Virus record (IMG/VR): IMGVR_UViG_2706795377_000001
Coordinates: 52,360-116,359 of that record
Length of the DNA stretch: 64,000 nucleotides
Origin: a virus
Lineage: Duplodnaviria; Heunggongvirae; Uroviricota; Caudoviricetes
Direction: 5' to 3' (one strand)
In this document: piece after piece, positions 1,675-43,601 of the stretch
Position numbering within the stretch: position 1 is the stretch's first letter
Layout: every line of letters starts with the position of its first letter
The notes under the pieces: generated by a model
What the model was told of the DNA's origin: nothing
Seen by the model: the letters and a program-made list of their open reading frames with translations, nothing else
Database searches by the model: none
Position numbers and translations under genes: made by a program

Positions 1675-3096
1675 ATGGACAAATATGTTCCTATTATAAC
1701 TAGTCAAGCTAATGCTTCGGAGTATGGAGGTATTGATAACTTTACTGTTTACTCTTCAGGAAATTACAATAAAAGCACTTACCCTAGAGAGATACTTAAT
1801 CGAGATAATCAAGTTGGTTGGGGGAGCAAAACAGGTGATAGACTTGCATGGGTTAGAGTTTTATTTCCACATGTCTACGCTCCAAGAAAGTTTACTATGT
1901 CTACTCCAATTGATGTAGTAATGACAAAGCGAACACCAACCAAATTTAAAATATATGGTATTCGTGAGAATTATCGAAACGTTCATGAGGCATATCAATT
2001 GAGAGCAGATACTTCAATTACTGTCGAACCTGATTGGGCTGGTGCAGACTTGCTTCTTGATGTGAATGAGGGGGAAGGATTTTGGAGTCCAAACCAAACT
2101 AAAGAATGGATAATCAATAAAAGCAATAAAAAGTACATCGGCTTCTATGTTTACATGTATGGGAAAGAAGAAGCTTGGACAGGTACTATGGAGTACTTCA
2201 TTGGAGAAGTTCAGATGTACACATATATTAATGATGAAAAGGATGTTGCGCTGATTAAAAGAAGTGTGGATGGCAAGTATATCTCTATTCAGAAGAACAG
2301 GCTTCATGCAAATCTATTTTCTGTAAGAGATTTGCATGAAGAAAGAGAAAGGTTTTACACTTTTAAATCACAAAGAAATATACGTTCTCCCTTTAGGGTG
2401 TATTTGAATGGAGCAGAAAATTTCTATATATTTAGCGAGACAGCTTACACGAAAGGAAAGTGGTACTATGAAATAAGAGTGTCTTCGGGAGATTCGAATT
2501 ATGGGCAAGCCACATACCATATGCTTGGATGGCACAGCAAAAGCGATATTGAGAACGTTGTGATTCCATATGAAGGCGATGGAGTTTATTTGTTTTGCGT
2601 AAATGGTAATTTATATGGAGCAATTGAACGAAAAGTAGATTATCAATATACCAAAAATACAAGTATGGTTGATAGAATTGGAATTGCTATAGATTTAGAT
2701 AATGATTATTTTGAAGTGTATTATGATGGTGCTTCACAAGGGAAAGTTAAAATGCGTTCTATGGGGAAACCTCTTGTTCCAGTTGTTGGATGTGGTTCAA
2801 GTAGTGTAGGTGAGGTTACTCTTGTTGACAATCCAAAATACCTACCAAAAGGATATAAAAACATTGTGAGAAAGCGAGATTACGAAGATATTATTGTTAG
2901 ATTTGAAGATGCCCCAACTGTTGATGATTATAAGAAGTATGGCGTAAAAGAAGGGGAGTCAATAGAATTTGACAAGCCTTATAACAAATTGAGGGTGTTT
3001 ACAGAAGCTACGATAAATACAGCTAATGGGAAGATTCATTCGTTTAAAATTGTTCCTAGCGCTGAAACAATTAATAAAGTTAGGATTGAGGTGTAA
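1675..3096 (+). CDS. Phage structural protein with galactose-binding-like and SPRY/B30.2-like segments
   Basis: 473 aa. RBS AAGAGGTGA. N-terminal part LAWVRVLFPHVYAPRKF is discoidin-like. Central part GKWYYEIRVSSGDSNYGQATYHMLGW..GVYLFCVNGNLYG..IGIAIDLDNDYFEVYYDG matches the SPRY domain pattern. Confidence 0.45.
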   Translation: MDKYVPIITSQANASEYGGIDNFTVYSSGNYNKSTYPREILNRDNQVGWGSKTGDRLAWVRVLFPHVYAPRKFTMSTPIDVVMTKRTPTKFKIYGIRENYRNVHEAYQLRADTSITVEPDWAGADLLLDVNEGEGFWSPNQTKEWIINKSNKKYIGFYVYMYGKEEAWTGTMEYFIGEVQMYTYINDEKDVALIKRSVDGKYISIQKNRLHANLFSVRDLHEERERFYTFKSQRNIRSPFRVYLNGAENFYIFSETAYTKGKWYYEIRVSSGDSNYGQATYHMLGWHSKSDIENVVIPYEGDGVYLFCVNGNLYGAIERKVDYQYTKNTSMVDRIGIAIDLDNDYFEVYYDGASQGKVKMRSMGKPLVPVVGCGSSSVGEVTLVDNPKYLPKGYKNIVRKRDYEDIIVRFEDAPTVDDYKKYGVKEGESIEFDKPYNKLRVFTEATINTANGKIHSFKIVPSAETINKVRIEV

Positions 3097-3098
3097 TT

Positions 3099-4745
3099 AT
3101 GATTCGTCAAACGTACTCTCATGGTTTTAATAAAACACTTAATGCTGTAATAAACTATTCAACAGATTGCATGTATTTGATAGAAAGACCTTTTGATTTA
3201 TTGTCGAATGCAATTTTAAGAACTATTAAACTCGTTGGTTCACCAACATATAAAACTCCAAAAATAAAGATTGCTATTTTCGAGGAGACAAACAAATATA
3301 AAGAGTTTAGAATTATTTGGATTGGCGAAATTGTAAATGATGGAAAGTACGGAGATAGCATTTATTATGCTGAGAATCTAAATGTTCAATGTCCAAATAA
3401 TGTTTACGTTGGCGTCCTTTACGAAAGAGGAACAAATCTTAATAAAAACACGCTCTTCGTAGATTCAAGTCAAAACACTTGGCACAATAGATATACAACA
3501 AAATTTAATTTTTCAGACTTTAAAGAAGGGTTTCTGTTCGACACAAAAGTTGATGGCGCAAGAAGTGATTATCACTTTCCTTTACAATTTGAATTTGATA
3601 TGAAAGAAGAACCAAAGGTTTTATTCCAAGATGAATCTACAGAATACAAAGTATTCAAGCCAGAACGATATGAAAATATAGCAAATGTTACTATGAATAG
3701 CACTCATATTTCAAGTAGTGGAACACATGAAAACCATCCAAATACGCTCTGGAATTTATTCGATGAAAATGACAATACTTTTTGGATAAGTTCAACTGAA
3801 ACGACATTTCCTAAGTATGTAAAATACGATTTTGGCGTACCTACAACTCTTGATAGATTTGAGATGACACCAGCAAAATCGCCTGTTCATGGTCAAAATG
3901 ATTGGGGGATTAGAAGTTGGACTTTGTATGGCTCTAACGACGATGTTTCGTATAGAGAGGTATTTAAGTCAGATATAACAACATCTAATAAGAATCTTGA
4001 CCAGTACAATTATGCGAATGGAAATGGTTTGAGGTTTGTTAATTTTATTAACAGTAAGCCTACATTCAGATATTTTAAGGTCGAGTTCAAAGACACTTAT
4101 GTAAGTGCAATACCATACAGTAACATTATTGCTATTCAACATATGCGATTTATGAAGTTGCGCGAAAAGACTTGGGAATCAATTGGGGTAGATGTAACCG
4201 AATCAGACTTTATCAATTATGGTATGACTATTGATGAAGTTGAGAATATGACAAATGAAGATTTTAATGAATTGCAAGGTAATTACACAATACAAGTATT
4301 TGTTGAAGATGCTAATTTAGATAAAATTTCAATTGTTAAAGAAACAGAAGAACAAATTTGGTTGAGGAATGAAACAACTGACGAATTCGATGTTGTTAGA
4401 TATACAGAAAATATTTATCTTGAAGAAGCCAAATATATTATTGATAATGGAAATAAAACATTAAAGGACTACTTCAACACAGTTGATGTGTCTGTTTATA
4501 CAGAGGAACCGAATCCAACAAAAAAACAAATTGAAATAAATCAACAATATAGCCCATTAGATGAATTAAGTGGCGACATTGAAATGTATGAATACAGCGA
4601 TATTGATTTAGCCAGAAGCCCAAAAGCTGATAAATCAATATTTGAAGAAGATTATACCCATTCAATTAATGGCGCATATGTAGATAGTGTTGAAATCAAT
4701 TTGAATGATACGAAAGGAAAGGCTAATAGGATAATTAACCCATAA
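3099..4745 (+). CDS. Phage structural protein with F5/8 type C (discoidin)-like domain
   Basis: 548 aa. RBS GAGGTG, and the ATG overlaps the previous stop. Segment NTLWNLFDENDNTFWISSTETTFPKYVKYDFGVPTTLDRFEMTP is typical of a discoidin/galactose-binding fold. Confidence 0.45.
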   Translation: MIRQTYSHGFNKTLNAVINYSTDCMYLIERPFDLLSNAILRTIKLVGSPTYKTPKIKIAIFEETNKYKEFRIIWIGEIVNDGKYGDSIYYAENLNVQCPNNVYVGVLYERGTNLNKNTLFVDSSQNTWHNRYTTKFNFSDFKEGFLFDTKVDGARSDYHFPLQFEFDMKEEPKVLFQDESTEYKVFKPERYENIANVTMNSTHISSSGTHENHPNTLWNLFDENDNTFWISSTETTFPKYVKYDFGVPTTLDRFEMTPAKSPVHGQNDWGIRSWTLYGSNDDVSYREVFKSDITTSNKNLDQYNYANGNGLRFVNFINSKPTFRYFKVEFKDTYVSAIPYSNIIAIQHMRFMKLREKTWESIGVDVTESDFINYGMTIDEVENMTNEDFNELQGNYTIQVFVEDANLDKISIVKETEEQIWLRNETTDEFDVVRYTENIYLEEAKYIIDNGNKTLKDYFNTVDVSVYTEEPNPTKKQIEINQQYSPLDELSGDIEMYEYSDIDLARSPKADKSIFEEDYTHSINGAYVDSVEINLNDTKGKANRIINP

Positions 4746-37183: not shown

Positions 37184-37443
37184 TTTACGACTACCCAATC
37201 TTCCGAAAGTATATCTGTTTGTGAAGCCAGCCAACCAACAACACATTTACCTTCTGCATCACGCATACAAATGTGCGCTCGGCTCTCAAAGAAGTCTTTT
37301 CCTGTGCCTTCAACCATGTGACCTTCCGTTGTCTGAATGGTGCGACCTTCACGAAGGAAAATGAACATTCCTTTGCCATTCCATCCTTCACGCGCAACCT
37401 TACCACCATTTTTAATTACTTCAAGTGCCTGCCCGAAATTCAT
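37180..37443 (-). CDS. DUF2829-like protein (family that includes Thoeris anti-defence Tad2)
   Basis: 87 aa. MNFGQALEVIKNGGKVAREGWNGKGMFIF matches the characteristic N-terminus of DUF2829 proteins. Confidence 0.45.
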   Translation of the reverse strand: MNFGQALEVIKNGGKVAREGWNGKGMFIFLREGRTIQTTEGHMVEGTGKDFFESRAHICMRDAEGKCVVGWLASQTDILSEDWVVVN

Positions 37444-37446
37444 ATT

Positions 37447-37752
37447 CTAATTACCTCCCATTGTTCTTGGATTAAATGGTGTGAAGCGACGAACACTTTG
37501 ACCATCGACCTCAACGTATTCAAAGAACATTTCTTCTGGACGAAGCCAATAGTTGCCTTGTGTGTCGATATAAAGAATAAGTGAATCATCAATATTCGCA
37601 TGAAATCCATTTTCATAAAGGAATACTGGCTGAACATGACCTGTCTCTGTATGTGTTGCAGAAAGGTATCCCTTTGCTTTCTCAGGATTTACACCTTGCT
37701 TCACTACGCCTAAAACATAGTAATCATTACCTTTGTAATGGCGATAAAACAT
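37447..37752 (-). CDS. DUF1653-like protein
   Basis: 101 aa. YRHYKGNDYYVLGV...ATHTETGHV motif pattern. Confidence 0.4.
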   Translation of the reverse strand: MFYRHYKGNDYYVLGVVKQGVNPEKAKGYLSATHTETGHVQPVFLYENGFHANIDDSLILYIDTQGNYWLRPEEMFFEYVEVDGQSVRRFTPFNPRTMGGN

Positions 37753-37753
37753 T

Positions 37754-38122
37754 TTACTTTCCCTCCTTTAACTCATTCAGTACTTTAATAAGTTCTGAAC
37801 GGAATACATCAATTTCATCGTGCCAACCACCAATTCCTAATGCTCCTTGCGTTAGGCGATGTTCAAGGACTTCAATGTTTGTTTCATCTGGTTTCCATTG
37901 ACCTTCAAGACCAAAGCAAGAGCAATGACTTCCATTGACTTCATACAACTTACCATCCTTACGGAATAAGACAAACGCATCCCCTTCACAACTATCGTAT
38001 GTGTAAGATGCAAGAAGAATCTCTACATCTTTCAGTTCATCACCTCGAATCTGGAAGTCGTCTTTCAACAATGCTAGTCCCCAATTAGTTTTAGCCCAAT
38101 CATTTAAGTAAATAGCTTCCAT
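37754..38122 (-). CDS. Hypothetical protein
   Basis: 122 aa ORF. Confidence 0.4.
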   Translation of the reverse strand: MEAIYLNDWAKTNWGLALLKDDFQIRGDELKDVEILLASYTYDSCEGDAFVLFRKDGKLYEVNGSHCSCFGLEGQWKPDETNIEVLEHRLTQGALGIGGWHDEIDVFRSELIKVLNELKEGK

Positions 38123-39958: not shown

Positions 39959-40679
39959 TTATGTTTTTTAGAATCATCTTGTAGATAAGAGATTCTACTT
40001 CTTGCTTAATTTCTTCGTTTGGAATCATACTTCCATACACTTTTGCAAGCTGTCTGAAATGTGCGCATTTCTGAGAAACCAATTCTTCATACTGCTCTCT
40101 GTTGTATTCACCATACTTAATATCGAGCATTCGTTGCGCTGTGGTTCCTTCATAGGTCATAGCCCATTCAAAGTCTTCAAAATTAGTGATAGCAAATCGC
40201 ACAGGGAAATCAAGAATACGATATGCGTGAAGTGCTTCTTTGGTGTTGTATCCATACTTCTCTACCAAATTCTCTGTGTCTTCTGTGGCTTTGTTAAGTC
40301 GCTTCATCTTCTCGAAGTGCATACCTTTACATGCATTGTATAGATATGGAAGATTCATTCGTACAATCTCTTTCTTCATAGCAATGATTTTGCTAATTTC
40401 TTGACTGTAGCTATTCAACTGCTTTGAGTACAGAACTTCAAGGAAATTGAGGTTTGATTTCCACCAGAGGTTCACAGCCTTGCGAATGTCATGAACATCA
40501 TAGTCCTCCTCCACTCCTATTGTATCTTTCGTATACATTTTTCCATGATACAGGTCATCGAATGTCGGAAGCACAAATACTTTGAAATCCTTGTCTGACT
40601 CAGGTGTTGCCAGCCCATAGTTGTGTGAGCCAACCAATGCTTTTAAAACTGTCTTTCTTTCATTCAGCAAACAAATCAC
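39945..40679 (-). CDS. Nucleotidyltransferase-fold protein (GS-x10-DxD)
   Basis: 244 aa. N-terminal VGSHNYGLATPESDKDFKVFV is a pol-beta superfamily NTase signature. It is the first gene of the leftward block, next to the divergent promoter region. Confidence 0.4.
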   Translation of the reverse strand: MICLLNERKTVLKALVGSHNYGLATPESDKDFKVFVLPTFDDLYHGKMYTKDTIGVEEDYDVHDIRKAVNLWWKSNLNFLEVLYSKQLNSYSQEISKIIAMKKEIVRMNLPYLYNACKGMHFEKMKRLNKATEDTENLVEKYGYNTKEALHAYRILDFPVRFAITNFEDFEWAMTYEGTTAQRMLDIKYGEYNREQYEELVSQKCAHFRQLAKVYGSMIPNEEIKQEVESLIYKMILKNITKAK

Positions 40680-40764
40680 CTAGCTTCTTTTATAGTTGGT
40701 TTCTATCTCAGCACCCTTGCTGTGCTTGATGTTTTTATTTATTTGTGTCTTTTCTCCTTTATTA

Positions 40765-40790
40765 TAGTACTTTATTTAGCTCCTGTCAAT
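40765..40790 (-). repeat. Conserved element copy 12 (variant), in divergent promoter region
   Basis: Plus-strand TAGTACTTTATTTAGCTCCTGTCAAT. Lies 85 nt upstream of the first leftward gene and about 160 nt from the RNPP-receptor gene start. Confidence 0.55.
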
Positions 40791-40951
40791 GATATTTATA
40801 TATTCTCACTCTTAATTTTCCTAAATATAATATTTAAGAATCTATAGATATTTATTACATAACTTTATTGTGCATTTACAAATATATACATTTTTGGTAA
40901 CATATTAAGAAATATCATGTTTTATTAATTTAGGAAGGGGAATATTTTGAT

Positions 40952-42244
40952 ATGGCTGAAAGTTTAACTTTCACATCATTGGGGGAACTGGTAAAAGGAA
41001 AACGAATAAATTTAGGTCTAAGCCTATCGGAACTATCTAGGAAAACTGGGGTTAGTAAAGGGATACTATCTAAGATTGAATCAGGTGAAACAAAACGCCC
41101 TGAACTAAGGAACCTTAAATTAATTGCAGATGGGTTACAGATTCCTTATGACGATGTAGTTGAGCTTTATATAGAGATTGAACATAGAATGAGCATTTTT
41201 GAGGATTTTCTTTGGGAAGCGATTGCCGTTTCTAGTCCCTCTTTGATTGAAAAAGTGGCTAGTAAGTTCCTTGAAGATTCTAAAAAAGATACCTTCGAAT
41301 CATTAGAAAGTATCTTTGTGATTGCAAATACTATTAAAAACAATGATGCTAGATTAGCACTTTACAATACTATAATTAAATATGCGAGAATACACGGTAT
41401 ACCAATGTATATAGCTAAAGGGTTATATCAAAAATATCTGATTGACAGACAGGATTTAAAACGGATGGACAAATCTTTTAAAGATGGTGAAGAAATCCTC
41501 CATTATGTCGATTTTTTATCTCATGAAGATAAAGTTACATACTACTACAAGATTTCATTACAGGCATATGCTCTAAAATACTACGATTCATGCATAACAT
41601 TAGGGAAAAAAGGGCATGAGGAAGATTGTACAGTAAACGAATTGAAAGAGCGTGTTGCTTTAGCAATTTGTAATTCTTATTTACTTTTAAAAGATTACAC
41701 TACTTTGGAAGAACACCTCTCGTTGTATGAGAATTTGAACTACACTTTCATAATTGAGCGTGTTCAATATTATCGCGCTCTTATACTTTCAAAAACAGGA
41801 AATTATGAAGAAGCACTCCCTTTACTTTGGAGATGTTTCGAAGAAGTTACAGATTACCAAAGATTGCACAGAGCTAACATGTTACTAGAAGCACTGTTTG
41901 AGATTAATGATTCTGATTCTATTCGGAGAATTATAGAATCAGAAGAGAAGAAGTTTTTAATTTTAGAAAATGAACCATTCCAGTGTTTAGAATTAGGTAA
42001 ATACTATAGGTTCAAAGGGACTTACCTTGTTAAAAATGAATCATTTGATTTAGGAATGGAGGCTTATCTTAGTAGCATTTATCACTATGGGAAAATAAAT
42101 GCTTATAAAGAAATTACGGAATGTTCAAGAGACATTTATTTTTATCATAGTTCGATGAAAAAAAACATAAGCTTTGATATGTCATCTAAATTGGAAAAAT
42201 TGTATAATTTATCTAATGACATTATAGAAAGAGGTGATAAGTAA
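40952..42244 (+). CDS. RNPP-family quorum-sensing receptor (N-terminal XRE-type HTH + TPR-like domain; AimR/NprR-like)
   Basis: 430 aa. RBS AGGAAGGGGA. HTH LGLSLSELSRKTGVSKGILSKIESGETKRPELRNLKLIADGL, followed by about 370 aa of helical-repeat sequence. Its stop overlaps the ATG of a signal-peptide ORF (TAATG). Confidence 0.6.
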   Translation: MAESLTFTSLGELVKGKRINLGLSLSELSRKTGVSKGILSKIESGETKRPELRNLKLIADGLQIPYDDVVELYIEIEHRMSIFEDFLWEAIAVSSPSLIEKVASKFLEDSKKDTFESLESIFVIANTIKNNDARLALYNTIIKYARIHGIPMYIAKGLYQKYLIDRQDLKRMDKSFKDGEEILHYVDFLSHEDKVTYYYKISLQAYALKYYDSCITLGKKGHEEDCTVNELKERVALAICNSYLLLKDYTTLEEHLSLYENLNYTFIIERVQYYRALILSKTGNYEEALPLLWRCFEEVTDYQRLHRANMLLEALFEINDSDSIRRIIESEEKKFLILENEPFQCLELGKYYRFKGTYLVKNESFDLGMEAYLSSIYHYGKINAYKEITECSRDIYFYHSSMKKNISFDMSSKLEKLYNLSNDIIERGDK

Positions 42245-42390
42245 TGAAAAGAATTTTTTGGGGCGTATCGGTATTTTTAACAATGTTTTCTTTCTCTCTT
42301 CTAGCATTAGAAAATGATAAAACAGAACACTCCACAAATAAAATTCAGCATTACGCAATAACTGTATATACTGATAATCCCGGTTATTAA
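42244..42390 (+). CDS. Secreted pro-peptide (48 aa), candidate signalling peptide cognate to the RNPP receptor
   Basis: Not in the ORF track. ATG at 42244 overlaps the receptor stop by 1 nt. RBS AGAGGTGA at 7-nt spacing. Encodes MKRIFWGVSVFLTMFSFSLLALENDKTEHSTNKIQHYAITVYTDNPGY. The arrangement matches AimP, Phr, NprX and PapR pro-peptides. Confidence 0.5.
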   Translation: MKRIFWGVSVFLTMFSFSLLALENDKTEHSTNKIQHYAITVYTDNPGY

Positions 42391-42409
42391 TCAATGAATA
42401 TTACTTTTA

Positions 42410-42437
42410 AAGAACGCTATTGTAGCGTTCTTTTTTT
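42410..42437 (+). terminator. Rho-independent terminator after the peptide gene
   Basis: AAGAACGCTA ttg TAGCGTTCTT followed by TTTTT. A second, weaker hairpin with a T7 run sits at 42474-42496. Confidence 0.65.
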
Positions 42438-42561
42438 ATGGAAAATTTATAATTCTTTGTCGAAATTTGAAGAACGTTTCATGTTCACGTTTTTTTAAGG
42501 CGAACATGCATCTTTTGGTAAAATAATACATAAGAGGAAGGAGGTGCTTATTTATTAGTGT

Positions 42562-42846
42562 ATGTTTTTCAATGATAAGAGGTGTTCCCACTGTCTCCAA
42601 ACTTACGGGAACACCTCCTCCTTAAGTAACCCTTTTGTTACTCAAACTCATTTTACCACTCACCTACAGAATGTGAAAACAGAAAATTCTCAACAGAGAA
42701 ATGATTTACAGAAGCTTATAGAACTCCTCCGTAAAGAATTAGAGATGTTGTATTACAAAGAAGGTTCATTTGTACACCCAACCGTACTACAAATGAGCCA
42801 ACAACTAGATGAGTACATCGTTATGTTTGAGAAGATTAAACACTAG
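42562..42846 (+). CDS. Spo0E-like sporulation regulatory phosphatase family protein (start uncertain)
   Basis: C-terminal 55 aa NDLQKLIELLRKELEMLYYKEGSFVHPTVLQMSQQLDEYIVMFEKIKH fit the Spo0E-family pattern, including the SQxLD signature. The ATG at 42562 lies 21 nt from the nearest SD, which is unusually far. The in-frame GTG at 42673 would give a 58-aa product. A strong hairpin lies within the 5' region at 42579-42618. Confidence 0.5.
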   Translation: MFFNDKRCSHCLQTYGNTSSLSNPFVTQTHFTTHLQNVKTENSQQRNDLQKLIELLRKELEMLYYKEGSFVHPTVLQMSQQLDEYIVMFEKIKH

Positions 42847-43033
42847 TTGGTCATTAAGAGTAGGCTGTACGGAAAACTTATACAAAGCCCATTAGGGGTA
42901 ATGATTATTATAGCCGTTTTTCAGCTATTCATGGACAACTAAAAAGAGAATATAGTGAAAATATTCCAAATAAGGTTTATAATGAAAAAGTATGTTGTGT
43001 AAATATTTCCTAAACTAAAAGGAGCGAGTAATC

Positions 43034-43510
43034 ATGAAGAGAAAAATGATTGAGGCTTTAGCCTTAACTTGCGTACTCTCTGGTGTTAGTGTTATACCTG
43101 CATTTGCCGAAGCTAATAATGTGAACCAAGTTGAAGAAAATCGAATAGTTACGAATAAATCTAGCGTTACTCCTCAAGGACTCATTCAACCTATGAAAAC
43201 TAAAAAAATACTTACCAAAGACCTAGCTAATACCGAAATGGCAGAAGAGTTTAGTGTCAATAGGAGTTATGGATGGGTCAAGGTATATGTACACAACGAA
43301 GGCTCTAAGACAATTAATATTTCAGTCACCGATGAAAACGGCAATGAGAAAATGAGCGGAAAAGTAAAGCCCGGAAAGACTTGGACGGGATATGGCGAAA
43401 AGCCTTGGGGGATTGGTGATTATACAGTTGGACTGACGTCAGGACAAGCTAAAATGTCTGGTAAACTCTCAGTTCGTATTGCCCAAAACCGAGATGAATT
43501 AGACGATTAA
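43034..43510 (+). CDS. Secreted hypothetical protein (signal peptide, beta-rich)
   Basis: 158 aa. RBS AAAGGAGCGAG. Signal peptide MKRKMIEALALTCVLSGVSVIPAFAEA. Confidence 0.45.
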   Translation: MKRKMIEALALTCVLSGVSVIPAFAEANNVNQVEENRIVTNKSSVTPQGLIQPMKTKKILTKDLANTEMAEEFSVNRSYGWVKVYVHNEGSKTINISVTDENGNEKMSGKVKPGKTWTGYGEKPWGIGDYTVGLTSGQAKMSGKLSVRIAQNRDELDD

Positions 43511-43571
43511 AGCTTACAAAGAAACTTGTAGATTCCAAATAAGCAAATCGACTATCGTTCCCTTAAACGAA

Positions 43572-43601
43572 AAACGTCCGAATTCTCAAATTCGGACGTT
43601 T
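43572..43601. terminator. Terminator hairpin between convergent transcription units
   Basis: Perfect 13-bp stem AAACGTCCGAATT/AATTCGGACGTTT, with an A-run upstream and T's downstream. Confidence 0.6.

What the first reader, a model, noticed from the sequence alone, without database searches (positions are those of the whole stretch)
40952..42846. Phage RNPP-type peptide-sensing cassette joined to a Spo0E-like phosphatase gene
This cassette shares only the operon layout with arbitrium and Rap-Phr, not the peptide motif or receptor class.

Evidence in the sequence:
- A 430-aa regulator with an XRE-type HTH followed by about 370 aa of TPR-like helical repeats. This is the architecture of AimR, NprR and PlcR.
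- Its stop overlaps (TAATG) the start of a 48-aa ORF with a textbook signal peptide and its own RBS. That is the arrangement of AimP, Phr, NprX and PapR pro-peptides.
- Unlike classical SPbeta/phi3T arbitrium, the pro-peptide C-terminus (..VYTDNPGY) lacks the xxxRGA motif.
- The same rightward unit then has terminators, a hairpin-containing leader and an ORF whose C-terminal 55 aa fit the Spo0E family (LIELLRKELEML...VLQMSQQLDEYI). Spo0E proteins dephosphorylate Spo0A~P.

A phage that couples a peptide quorum signal to a Spo0A~P phosphatase would be sensing population density and rewiring the host sporulation/Spo0A state, which also influences lysis-lysogeny.
Basis: partly seen in the sequence, partly recalled or inferred. 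Interest (0 to 1): 0.85.

Follow-up and report, generated by a model that had tools for sequence, protein, structure and literature searches.

The report
Phage peptide-sensing cassette beside Spo0E gene
This stretch of Brevibacillus phage Sundance carries a real peptide-signal, receptor and Spo0E-like phosphatase gene trio that probably lets the phage tune host sporulation to population density, but the same prediction for this same phage is already published and is still untested.

Summary
Window 40952-42846 is 100% identical to Brevibacillus phage Sundance gp120-gp122.

- gp120 is a 430-aa protein with an XRE-type HTH and a TPR-like superhelix. Its nearest solved folds include NprR, PlcR, Rap and AimR.
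- gp121 is a 48-aa secreted pro-peptide. Its ATG overlaps the receptor stop (TAATG).
- gp122 is a Spo0E-family protein (PF09388, with an invariant SQxLD motif).

The trio is the standard layout of a small family found in Brevibacillus and some Paenibacillus. Of 51 related loci, 49 keep a pro-peptide ending in D-x-P-G-[Y/H]. Of 48 loci with enough sequence, 34 keep a Spo0E-like gene downstream. Profile comparison shows the receptor is a remote, full-length relative of AloR. AloR13 was shown experimentally to switch an adjacent spo0E-like gene on, and its peptide switches that gene off.

The idea is not new. Berg 2016 noted the PlcR-like and Spo0E genes. Bernard 2021/2023 named Sundance as carrying a candidate quorum-sensing system beside spo0E.

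This work adds:
- the conserved peptide motif;
- the AloR link;
- doubt about the Spo0E start codon (GTG 42673 for 57 aa, against ATG 42562 for 94 aa);
- a conserved promoter and leader architecture with two hairpins;
- a Sundance-like prophage in a host genome.

None of the function has been tested experimentally.

The parts
40803..40903 (+). Candidate promoters of the receptor/pro-peptide operon: TTCTCA-17-TATAAT at 40803-40831, and TTTACA-17-TAACAT with an upstream TG at 40875-40903
   Evidence: Consensus scan only. The number of promoter-like sites in the region is no higher than in shuffled sequence, so this is weak.
40952..42244 (+). gp120, the receptor: 430 aa, an N-terminal XRE-type HTH (about residues 10-70) followed by a TPR-like alpha-superhelix
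   Evidence: ORF. HTH_3 at E 5.9e-12. phrog_32768 over its full length. AlphaFold model pLDDT 87.4, all-helical. PlcR, NprR, Rap and AimR are among the best structural matches. Remote homology to AloR. RefSeq YP_009194170.1.
42244..42390 (+). gp121, the 48-aa pro-peptide MKRIFWGVSVFLTMFSFSLLALENDKTEHSTNKIQHYAITVYTDNPGY, made of a basic n-region, a 19-residue hydrophobic core and a conserved C-terminus
   Evidence: ORF and TAATG overlap. Homologous small ORFs are present in 49 of 51 related loci. The Sundance-like prophage L054 has an identical C-terminal 16 residues.
42364..42387 (+). Predicted mature signal: the C-terminal 6-8 residues (VYTDNPGY), carrying the family motif D-x-P-G-[Y/H]
   Evidence: Among 44 distinct C-termini, position -3 is P in 43, -2 is G in 38, -4 is D in 29, and -1 is H, Y, G, L, F or W. 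The cleavage point is inferred, not shown.
42409..42440 (+). Intrinsic terminator after the pro-peptide gene: an 11-bp stem AAAGAACGCTA/TAGCGTTCTTT followed by a T-run
   Evidence: It is conserved in position in the relatives.
42456..42481 (+). Conserved box TTTGTCGAAATTTGAAGAACGTTTCA (core GAACGTTT at 42472-42479). This is the candidate receptor operator, about 55 bp upstream of the predicted transcription start.
   Evidence: CGTT is invariant, and the flanks are conserved in 8 aligned leaders. The box sits 40-42 nt upstream of the -10 element in the more distant loci L005, L017 and L021. The operator role is inference.
42516..42524 (+). Extended -10 element TGGTAAAAT with a poor -35. This is the candidate activator-dependent promoter of the spo0E-like gene.
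   Evidence: Nearly invariant in 8 relatives and in SecTim467. No transcription start site data exist.
42532..42546 (+). Purine-rich, Shine-Dalgarno-like element AAGAGGAAGGAGGTG. ATG 42562 lies 15 nt downstream.
   Evidence: Conserved as AGGAGGAAGAAAGGAGG in relatives. In SecTim467 it directly precedes the Spo0E ORF.
42579..42645 (+). Two conserved hairpins in the spo0E leader: GAGGTGTTCCC-N17-GGGAACACCTC at 42579-42617, and TTAAGTAAC-N6-GTTACTCAA at 42622-42645
   Evidence: Of 17 pairs, 90.8% of cells are paired and 6 pairs show changes on both sides (only 6 of 500 shuffles reach this). The reading frame across this region is not conserved. Fold z-score of the leader is -1.97.
42650..42677 (-). 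Candidate antisense promoter on the minus strand: -35 TTCACA, a 16-nt spacer, and TG-extended -10 TAAAAT. It overlaps the spo0E start codon.
   Evidence: 10 of 12 positions plus TG. The -10 varies only at its weakly constrained positions in relatives (TGATACAAT, TGATATAAT). Function is unknown.
42673..42846 (+). gp122, the Spo0E-family protein: 57 aa from GTG 42673 as annotated. The alternative is 94 aa from ATG 42562.
   Evidence: PF09388 at E 4e-12. A family profile hits the B. anthracis Spo0E-like structures 2C0S (E 5.5e-6) and 2BZB (E 3.8e-4). S, Q, L, D and Y of SQxLDxY are invariant in 17 sequences.
43034..43510 (+). gp123, a 158-aa protein with a signal-peptide-like N-terminus. It is the last gene of the rightward island and may be co-regulated.
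   Evidence: ORF. phrog_33200, function unknown. No Pfam or NCBIfam support for the 'putative GTPase' label. Homologues follow the cassette in L054 and SecTim467.
43572..43601 (-). Strong 13-bp terminator closing the island, at the convergence with the leftward thioredoxin/RNR genes

Best explanation
This is a phage-borne copy of a receptor/pro-peptide/Spo0E module that is native to Brevibacillus and Paenibacillus. It is an RRNPP-type quorum-sensing system of the subfamily that Bernard et al. call 'QSS1 of Brevibacilli' or 'cluster 8'. That subfamily is a remote sister of AloR.

Proposed mechanism, step by step:
1. gp121 is exported by Sec and trimmed outside the cell to a C-terminal peptide of about 6-8 residues (…YTDNPGY). 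This is inferred.
2. The peptide is re-imported and binds the TPR groove of the gp120 dimer. This is inferred.
3. gp120 acts through its SinR/XRE-like HTH on the conserved GAACGTTT box upstream of a promoter with a weak -35 and an extended -10, at 42516-42524. It thereby controls transcription of the Spo0E-like gene, and perhaps of gp123. The anatomy is shown; the binding is inferred.
4. By analogy with AloR13 and AimR, the peptide-free receptor most likely activates, and the peptide switches the gene off.
5. The Spo0E-like protein would dephosphorylate host Spo0A~P. That would hold infected or lysogenic cells out of sporulation while the peptide (the density of phage or lysogens) is low, and release them when it is high.
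6. A structured leader with two hairpins and a possible antisense promoter add a second, uncharacterised control layer.
For: - Identity and annotation.
- Receptor architecture and fold.
- AloR homology over the full length.
- AloR13 activates its downstream spo0E promoter and the peptide shuts it off, shown by RNA-seq and a GFP reporter: PMC7425212.
- The trio is conserved: 49 of 51 loci have the motif pro-peptide and 34 of 48 have spo0E downstream.
- Peptide motif statistics.
- Spo0E membership.
- Conserved box, -10 element and leader.
- The cassette is a rightward, low-GC island (0.29-0.32 against 0.34-0.40) inside leftward replication genes, bounded by terminators.
- A close Sundance-like prophage in a B. 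laterosporus genome keeps the cassette, with a receptor 95% identical and the same peptide C-terminus.
- The same hypothesis has been published for this phage.
Against: - There is no experimental datum for this family or this phage. Secretion, processing, binding, the operator, the polarity of regulation and the phosphatase activity are all inferred.
- The receptor fails the 30% identity / 80% coverage criterion against AloR13, so the AloR mechanism is transferred across a large distance.
- The annotated GTG start of spo0E has no Shine-Dalgarno sequence.
- Some relatives have a broken or start-less spo0E (L011, L051, L053).
- 14 of 48 loci lack spo0E, so the receptor must have other targets in those.
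- The conserved box is not enriched elsewhere in the window, and its palindrome is short.
- Sundance has not been shown to lysogenise (PMC4909266).
Confidence: 0.7

Rival explanations
1. This is an arbitrium-like lysis-lysogeny switch. The receptor and peptide measure phage density to set the lysis-lysogeny decision. The downstream transcript (leader plus Spo0E-like ORF) would be the aimX-like effector, and any effect on sporulation would be secondary.
For: The operon order matches aimR-aimP-aimX, with a terminator and a regulated downstream transcript. AimR is among the structural matches. Sundance carries an integrase, and a close prophage exists. Spo0A~P state is known to influence the development of Bacillus phages (general knowledge, not tested here).
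Against: The cassette is about 24 kb from the integrase and putative repressor module. The same module sits in many bacterial chromosomal loci that show no phage context here. The peptide motif differs from arbitrium. There is no sequence-level similarity to AimR. The downstream gene is a bona fide Spo0E-family member.
Confidence: 0.12
2. The polarity is the reverse, as in PlcR or NprR. The peptide-bound receptor is the active DNA-binding form, so spo0E is switched on at high density. That would block sporulation in dense lysogen populations.
For: PlcR and NprR are the closest solved folds, and both are activated by their peptide (general knowledge of PlcR-PapR and NprR-NprX). Nothing in the sequence fixes the polarity.
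Against: In the nearest characterised relative with the same gene order (AloR13), and in AimR, the peptide switches the downstream gene off (PMC7425212).
Confidence: 0.2
3. The cassette is passenger DNA. It would be a host-derived mobile or recombined segment (the 'putative transposable region' of Berg et al.) with no adaptive role in the phage, possibly decaying.
For: - GC content is lower than the flanks (also PMC4909266).
- The cassette is mosaic. The L054 flanks are 98-100% identical, but Spo0E is 68% and gp123 65% identical.
- Phage Jenst keeps only a remnant of the receptor.
- Some relatives have a broken spo0E.
- The annotated start lacks a Shine-Dalgarno sequence.
Against: All three Sundance ORFs are intact, and the regulatory elements are conserved. 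The cassette is retained in two unrelated phages, in a prophage and in six IMG/VR contigs. No transposase is present, and the 'inverted repeats' coincide with terminators.
Confidence: 0.1

Closest known systems
AloR-AloP (Alo13) quorum-sensing system of Paenibacillus polymyxa (Voichek et al. 2020, PMC7425212)
   Same: - The gene order is the same: an HTH-TPR receptor, a secreted pro-peptide, then a spo0E-like gene.
- It occurs in the same bacterial group (Paenibacillaceae in the broad sense) and has many paralogues per genome.
- Full-length profile homology holds (hhalign probability 96.3%).
- In Alo13 the receptor activates spo0E and the peptide represses it.
- In SecTim467 a true AloR13-like receptor (37% identity) sits right next to the homologous cassette.
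   Different: Identity is only about 17-26%, below the family threshold used in the literature. The peptide code differs (…D-x-P-G-Y/H here, SHGRGG for AloP13). The receptor is shorter (about 430 aa against about 465). This copy is carried by a phage.
'QSS1 family of Brevibacilli' / 'novel cluster 8' of RRNPP_detector (Bernard et al. 2021 preprint; MBE 2023, PMC10075063)
   Same: This is almost certainly the same family. [quoted passage not shown]
   Different: Those papers give a genomic-context prediction only. The text available to me did not describe the conserved C-terminal motif, the AloR relationship, the start-codon problem or the leader and promoter architecture. I could not find the Sundance accession in the supplementary files held.
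Arbitrium (AimR-AimP-AimX) of SPbeta-like and B. cereus-group phages
   Same: It is phage-borne. It has an HTH-TPR receptor, a C-terminally matured secreted peptide and a regulated downstream transcript after a terminator.
   Different: There is no detectable sequence similarity. The peptide motif is different. The downstream gene is a Spo0E-family protein rather than aimX. The cassette is not next to the lysogeny module. The same module is common in bacterial chromosomes.
Phage-borne Rap-Phr (e.g. phi3T)
   Same: It is a phage-encoded peptide system expected to lower Spo0A~P and delay sporulation.
   Different: Rap has no HTH and acts directly on Spo0F~P. Here a transcription factor is predicted to control a separate Spo0A~P phosphatase gene.
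Spo0E / YnzD / YisI and the B. anthracis Spo0E-like proteins (PDB 2C0S, 2BZB)
   Same: There is a Pfam PF09388 match. The SQxLD signature is kept, including the Asp. The protein is small and predicted helical.
   Different: The motif is SQQLD rather than SQELD. There may be a 37-residue N-terminal extension. The gene is phage-encoded and placed under a peptide receptor. Activity is untested.

Membership tests
RRNPP(A) peptide receptors | [quoted passage not shown] | tested here: met
   HTH_3 at E 5.9e-12, residues 17-68. The 434 repressor and SinR match by sequence.
RRNPP(A) peptide receptors | C-terminal TPR-like superhelical peptide-binding domain | tested here: met
RRNPP(A) peptide receptors | Adjacent small gene for a secreted pro-peptide whose C-terminus is the signal | tested here: met
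   The 48-aa ORF overlaps the receptor stop. It has a basic n-region and a hydrophobic core (12-residue Kyte-Doolittle mean above 1.8). It is conserved in 49 of 51 loci with a C-terminal motif. SignalP was not available.
RRNPP(A) peptide receptors | Direct binding of the matured peptide to the receptor, changing its activity | not testable with these tools
   This needs ITC or MST, a reporter assay, or at least a complex prediction.
AloR family (Voichek 2020) | Sequence similarity to AloR13 at family level (at least 30% identity over at least 80% of the length, the criterion used by Bernard et al.) | tested here: not met
   BLASTP gives 26% identity over 111 residues only. hhalign gives 17% identity.
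AloR family (Voichek 2020) | Profile-level homology over the full length | tested here: met
   hhalign probability 96.3%, E 1.7e-9, 374 aligned columns spanning both proteins. The AloR profile was built from only 7 sequences that came from machine-read PDF text.
AloR family (Voichek 2020) | spo0E-like gene immediately downstream (present in a subset of Alo systems) | tested here: met
   PMC7425212.
Bernard 'QSS1 of Brevibacilli' / 'cluster 8' | Receptor clusters with the Brevibacillus/Paenibacillaceae candidates found on chromosomes, plasmids and phages | tested here: inconclusive
   108 homologues, nearly all from Brevibacillus, including plasmid and phage copies. The text names Sundance and cluster 8. 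The cluster table entry for this accession was not found in the supplements held.
Arbitrium (AimR/AimP) | AimR sequence family and an AimP C-terminal motif (xxxxGG/GA) | tested here: not met
   No AimR hit by sequence. The peptide ends in DNPGY.
Arbitrium (AimR/AimP) | Control of the lysis-lysogeny decision | not testable with these tools
   Context argues weakly against it, since the integrase is about 24 kb away.
Rap-Phr | A TPR protein without an HTH that acts directly as a phosphatase or anti-activator | tested here: not met
   gp120 has an N-terminal HTH.
Spo0E family (PF09388) | Match to the family profile above the curated threshold | tested here: met
   46.3 bits against a cut-off of 23, E 4.1e-12, covering all 42 profile positions.
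Spo0E family (PF09388) | Signature SQELD-type motif with the conserved Asp | tested here: met
   The motif is SQQLD. S, Q, L, D and the following Y are invariant in 17 family sequences. It aligns to SQELD of 2C0S.
Spo0E family (PF09388) | Dephosphorylation of Spo0A~P | not testable with these tools
   A biochemical or sporulation assay is needed.

The most novel reading that the evidence does not exclude
The Sundance cassette could be more than a copy of an Alo-like module. It may speak a previously uncharacterised peptide code (x-Y-x-D-x-P-G-Y/H) shared with a dozen or more paralogous host systems. That would let the phage both signal to its kin and eavesdrop on, or jam, host signalling. Its spo0E output may also be gated by a new cis-regulatory arrangement: a conserved two-hairpin leader flanked by convergent extended -10 promoters. 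This recalls the prgQ/prgX antisense switch and could give a bistable decision on host sporulation.
Probability: 0.2. Interest if true: 0.6.

Novelty: already known. Interest (0 to 1): 0.35.

Why it matters
If validated, this would be a clear case of a phage using a peptide signal to steer a host developmental pathway (entry into sporulation through Spo0A~P) rather than its own lysis-lysogeny switch. B. laterosporus is a bee-associated and insecticidal spore-former, so it would also bear on how spores, the transmissive form, are produced in infected populations.

The hypothesis already exists in print. The practical value of this work is a sharper experimental design:
- the likely mature peptide (the last 6-8 residues, …YTDNPGY);
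- the likely operator and promoter (42456-42524);
- the two candidate start codons;
- a heterologous assay that worked for the related Alo13 system.

Tried and rejected
- Rfam found no family for the leader. Only two chance-level hits appeared in 40600-43100 at E up to 1, and none in the whole window at gathering score.
- I considered a long-range RNA helix between TGGTAAAAT (42516-24) and ATTTTACCA (42650-58). I rejected it because the 3' side changes in relatives with no compensating 5' change, while those changes keep a -10 consensus on the minus strand.
- The minus-strand 54-aa ORF at 42436-42600, and the leader ORFs on the plus strand, are not conserved as reading frames. Indels of 1, 2 and 7 nt occur, and stop codons appear in relatives.
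- The core box pattern RAACGTTY is not enriched in the window (7 found, 4.5 expected). This gives no evidence for a regulon elsewhere in these 64 kb.
- The second 'terminator' (AACGT…ACGTT plus T7) is present only in Sundance, L048 and L054, not across the family.
- The transposon reading of Berg et al. has no support: no transposase is present and the repeats coincide with terminators.
- A search of the MBE 2023 supplements for Sundance accessions found nothing.
- A single-sequence PDB search with Spo0E was only marginal (2C0S at E 0.19). A profile was needed.
- Foldseek TM-scores to the RRNPP structures are low (0.23-0.42) because the superhelix pitch differs. The fold assignment therefore rests on the ranking plus the domain architecture, not on a tight superposition.
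Full report
**Identity of the region.** Window 40700-43600 is 100% identical to Brevibacillus phage Sundance (NC_028749.1, 93059-95959; record coordinate = window + 52359). Sundance is a 134-kb siphovirus of B. laterosporus isolated from honeybee debris. RefSeq annotates four genes here:
- gp120, 'putative DNA-binding protein', 430 aa;
- gp121, hypothetical, 48 aa;
- gp122, 'aspartyl-phosphate phosphatase Spo0E family protein', 57 aa;
- gp123, 'putative GTPase', 158 aa.

These four are the only rightward genes in a long run of leftward replication and nucleotide-metabolism genes.

**Check of the observation.**
- The receptor stop and the pro-peptide start overlap as TAATG, with GGTGA 8 nt upstream.
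- Pfam gives HTH_3 (E 5.9e-12) for gp120, with only sub-threshold TPR hits. It gives SpoOE-like PF09388 (E 4.1e-12, 46.3 bits against a cut-off of 23) for residues 49-91 of the 94-aa ORF.
- PHROGs places gp120 and gp123 in families of unknown function.
- One canonical terminator follows the pro-peptide gene (42409-42433 plus a T-run). A strong terminator on the other strand (43601-43572) closes the island.
- The island has lower GC (0.29-0.32 across the receptor) than its flanks (0.34-0.40).

**The receptor.** A search of 5.8 billion proteins found 108 relatives, almost all from Brevibacillus and a few from Paenibacillus. Many paralogues occur per genome, some on plasmids, and one in the unrelated phage SecTim467.

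A profile search of 1.84 billion cluster representatives found only 92 clusters at E ≤ 1e-30. The family is therefore small and taxonomically narrow.

An AlphaFold model built from 79 family members is confident (pLDDT 87.4) and entirely helical.
- Foldseek against the PDB ranks PlcR-PapR-DNA first (E 6e-5), and also finds AimR, Rap and ComR.

With the N-terminal HTH, this is the RRNPP architecture.

**Relation to AloR.** I took seven AloR sequences from the supplement of Voichek et al. 2020.
- BLASTP of gp120 against AloR13 aligns only the first 111 residues, at 26% identity.
- A profile-profile comparison of the gp120 family with the AloR set aligns 374 columns end to end, with probability 96.3% and E 1.7e-9 at 17% identity.

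The family is therefore a remote sister of AloR, not a member by the 30%/80% rule used in the literature.

**The pro-peptide.** I fetched 46 loci from species-representative genomes and 6 from IMG/VR, then added a prophage locus (L054) and SecTim467 (L055).

In 49 of 51 assessable loci, a 35-57-aa ORF with a basic and then hydrophobic N-terminus sits at the receptor's 3' end. It ends in a shared motif. Among 44 distinct C-termini, position -3 is P in 43, -2 is G in 38, -4 is D in 29, and the last residue is H, Y, G, L, F or W. Residues -8 to -5 vary (for example VYTDNPGY, AFHDNPGH, AYTDDPGY, RVVDPGY, NVDVTPGH). That variation is what a specificity-determining mature peptide would show. A K or R often lies at -9, which hints at an 8-mer, but the cleavage site is an inference.

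The motif is unrelated to arbitrium (xxxxGG/GA) and to AloP13 (SHGRGG).

**The Spo0E-like gene.** In 34 of 48 loci with enough downstream sequence, an ORF with SQxLDxY lies 370-790 nt after the receptor.
- S, Q, L, D and Y are invariant in 17 representatives.
- Their profile hits the two solved B. anthracis Spo0E-like proteins, 2C0S (E 5.5e-6) and 2BZB (E 3.8e-4). SQQLD aligns on SQELD/SRDLD.

The start codon is uncertain.
- For the 57-aa form: the closest relatives begin at ATG codons that align with Sundance GTG 42673 (MENTQSK… and MKTENSQ…). The frame upstream is not conserved.
- For the 94-aa form: the Sundance GTG has no Shine-Dalgarno sequence, whereas ATG 42562 follows AGGAGGTG by 15 nt. 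More distant relatives (L012, L007) also encode long forms that start at the equivalent strong Shine-Dalgarno sequence.

**The intergenic control region.** Alignment of eight close leaders, and inspection of about 30 more, show the following order of elements:
1. The terminator.
2. A conserved box TTGTCGAAAT-N4-5-AGAACGTTTC (Sundance 42456-42481).
3. An extended -10 element TGGTAAAAT (42516-42524) with a poor -35, 40-42 nt after the ACGT core in Sundance, L005, L017 and L021.
4. A purine-rich AGGAGGAAGAAAGGAGG.
5. In the B. laterosporus group only, an insertion of about 125 nt carrying two hairpins and a conserved ATTTTACCA.

SecTim467 lacks this insertion, and there the purine-rich element directly serves the Spo0E ORF.

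The two hairpins (42579-42617 and 42622-42645) are supported by 17 pairs with 90.8% of cells paired. Six pairs change on both sides, a value that only 6 of 500 shuffles reach. The sample is only nine related sequences, and the fold z-score of the Sundance leader is modest at -1.97.

ATTTTACCA reads as a TG-extended -10 on the minus strand. In relatives it varies only at weakly constrained positions (TGATACAAT, TGATATAAT). Together with a TTCACA -35, it scores 10 of 12. This suggests a convergent antisense promoter. No Rfam family matches.

A weak -35 with an extended -10 is typical of activator-dependent promoters. The HTH is SinR/SlrR-like, and GTTC/GAAC motifs recur in the box, the terminator stem and hairpin 1. 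I therefore propose the box as the operator. This is inference.

**Phage context.**
- A B. laterosporus assembly (GCA_024742055.1) contains a Sundance-like prophage. A holin and amidase lie upstream, followed by the same cassette, thioredoxin (100% identical), RNR-beta (97.7%) and the rest of the replication block.
- Its receptor is 95% identical, and the last 16 residues of its pro-peptide are identical. Its Spo0E and gp123 homologues are only 68% and 65% identical, so there is a recombination junction inside the cassette.
- This supports a temperate lineage. Berg et al. inferred the same only from an integrase. That integrase lies about 24 kb away, outside the window.

**What is already published.**
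- Berg et al. 2016 described this region in SecTim467 and Sundance as a 'putative transposable region' shared with B. laterosporus LMG 15441. They noted the Spo0E homologue and a 100% HHpred match of SecTim467 gp71 to PlcR/PapR.
- Voichek et al. 2020 showed for Alo13 that the receptor activates the downstream spo0E-like promoter, and that 10 nM to 5 µM peptide shuts it off.
- Bernard et al. [quoted passage not shown] They name Brevibacillus phage Sundance, next to phi3T, as a sequenced temperate phage with the 'density-dependent sporulation-hijacking' signature.
- I found no experimental follow-up.

The most likely mechanism is an Alo13-like circuit. The peptide-free receptor activates the spo0E-like promoter. 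The imported C-terminal peptide releases that activation. The Spo0E-like protein lowers Spo0A~P. My confidence is about 0.7 that the peptide-receptor pair controls spo0E. The polarity is much less certain.

The rival readings are:
- an arbitrium-like lysis-lysogeny role;
- reversed polarity;
- a neutral passenger segment.

This analysis adds the peptide motif, the AloR homology, the start-codon ambiguity, the conserved promoter and leader anatomy with a possible antisense promoter, and the prophage relative.

Noticed in passing
L055 (SecTim467, KT151957.1) 4312-4476, minus strand: The pro-peptide gene of SecTim467 gp71 is not annotated. The ORF ends …SSAKAYTDDPGY and overlaps the end of the receptor gene.
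   Followed up: partly
L055 (SecTim467) 2400-3824, minus strand: SecTim467 gp69 (474 aa) is a genuine AloR-type receptor, 37% identical to AloR13 over 448 residues (E 2e-89). It lies immediately after the Spo0E gene, so this phage carries two different RRNPP receptors side by side. No obvious secreted pro-peptide follows it: gp68 has no hydrophobic N-terminus.
   Followed up: partly
window 43034-43510 (+): gp123 is annotated 'putative GTPase', but it has no Pfam or NCBIfam support and does have a signal-peptide-like N-terminus. Homologues follow the cassette only in the L054 prophage (65%) and in SecTim467 gp67 (64%). It may be a secreted product co-regulated with spo0E.
   Followed up: partly
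window 42650-42677 (-): A conserved TG-extended -10 (TGGTAAAAT) with a TTCACA -35 lies on the minus strand and overlaps the spo0E start codon. In relatives it varies only at weakly constrained -10 positions. It is a possible antisense promoter, convergent with the spo0E promoter.
   Followed up: partly
L054 (B. laterosporus GCA_024742055.1, JANSGZ010000003.1 8104-29396): This is a Sundance-like prophage. Its flanking genes are 98-100% identical, and the receptor is 95% identical, but Spo0E is only 68% and gp123 65% identical. A recombination junction therefore lies inside the cassette. Sundance's Spo0E is closer (76%) to those of L050, L011 and L051.
   Followed up: partly
L005 and L019 (DASQNU010000067.1, DASQNU010000157.1): Contigs labelled 'Candidatus Bathyarchaeia archaeon' MAG carry Brevibacillus-type cassettes of receptor, pro-peptide and spo0E (46-50% identity). 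These are probably bacterial contigs binned in error.
   Followed up: no
window 40761-40789 (-): A perfect consensus sigma-70 promoter (TTGACA-17-TATAAT, 12 of 12) points leftward toward gp119. It is divergent from the receptor promoter region.
   Followed up: no
window 42406-42500 (+): The terminator and the box region look like a degenerate tandem duplication. TTTAAAGAACG and TTTGAAGAACG, and TTTTTTTATGG and TTTTTTTAAGG, each recur with a spacing of 59-60 nt.
   Followed up: no
window 37414-37782 (-), record 90113-90481: gp112 is annotated 'integrase' but is only 122 aa. The integrase cited by Berg et al. is gp157 (322 aa), which lies outside the window. The gp112 label looks doubtful.
   Followed up: no
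window 1-64000: The whole 64-kb window has no tRNA genes and no Rfam family at gathering score.
   Followed up: yes
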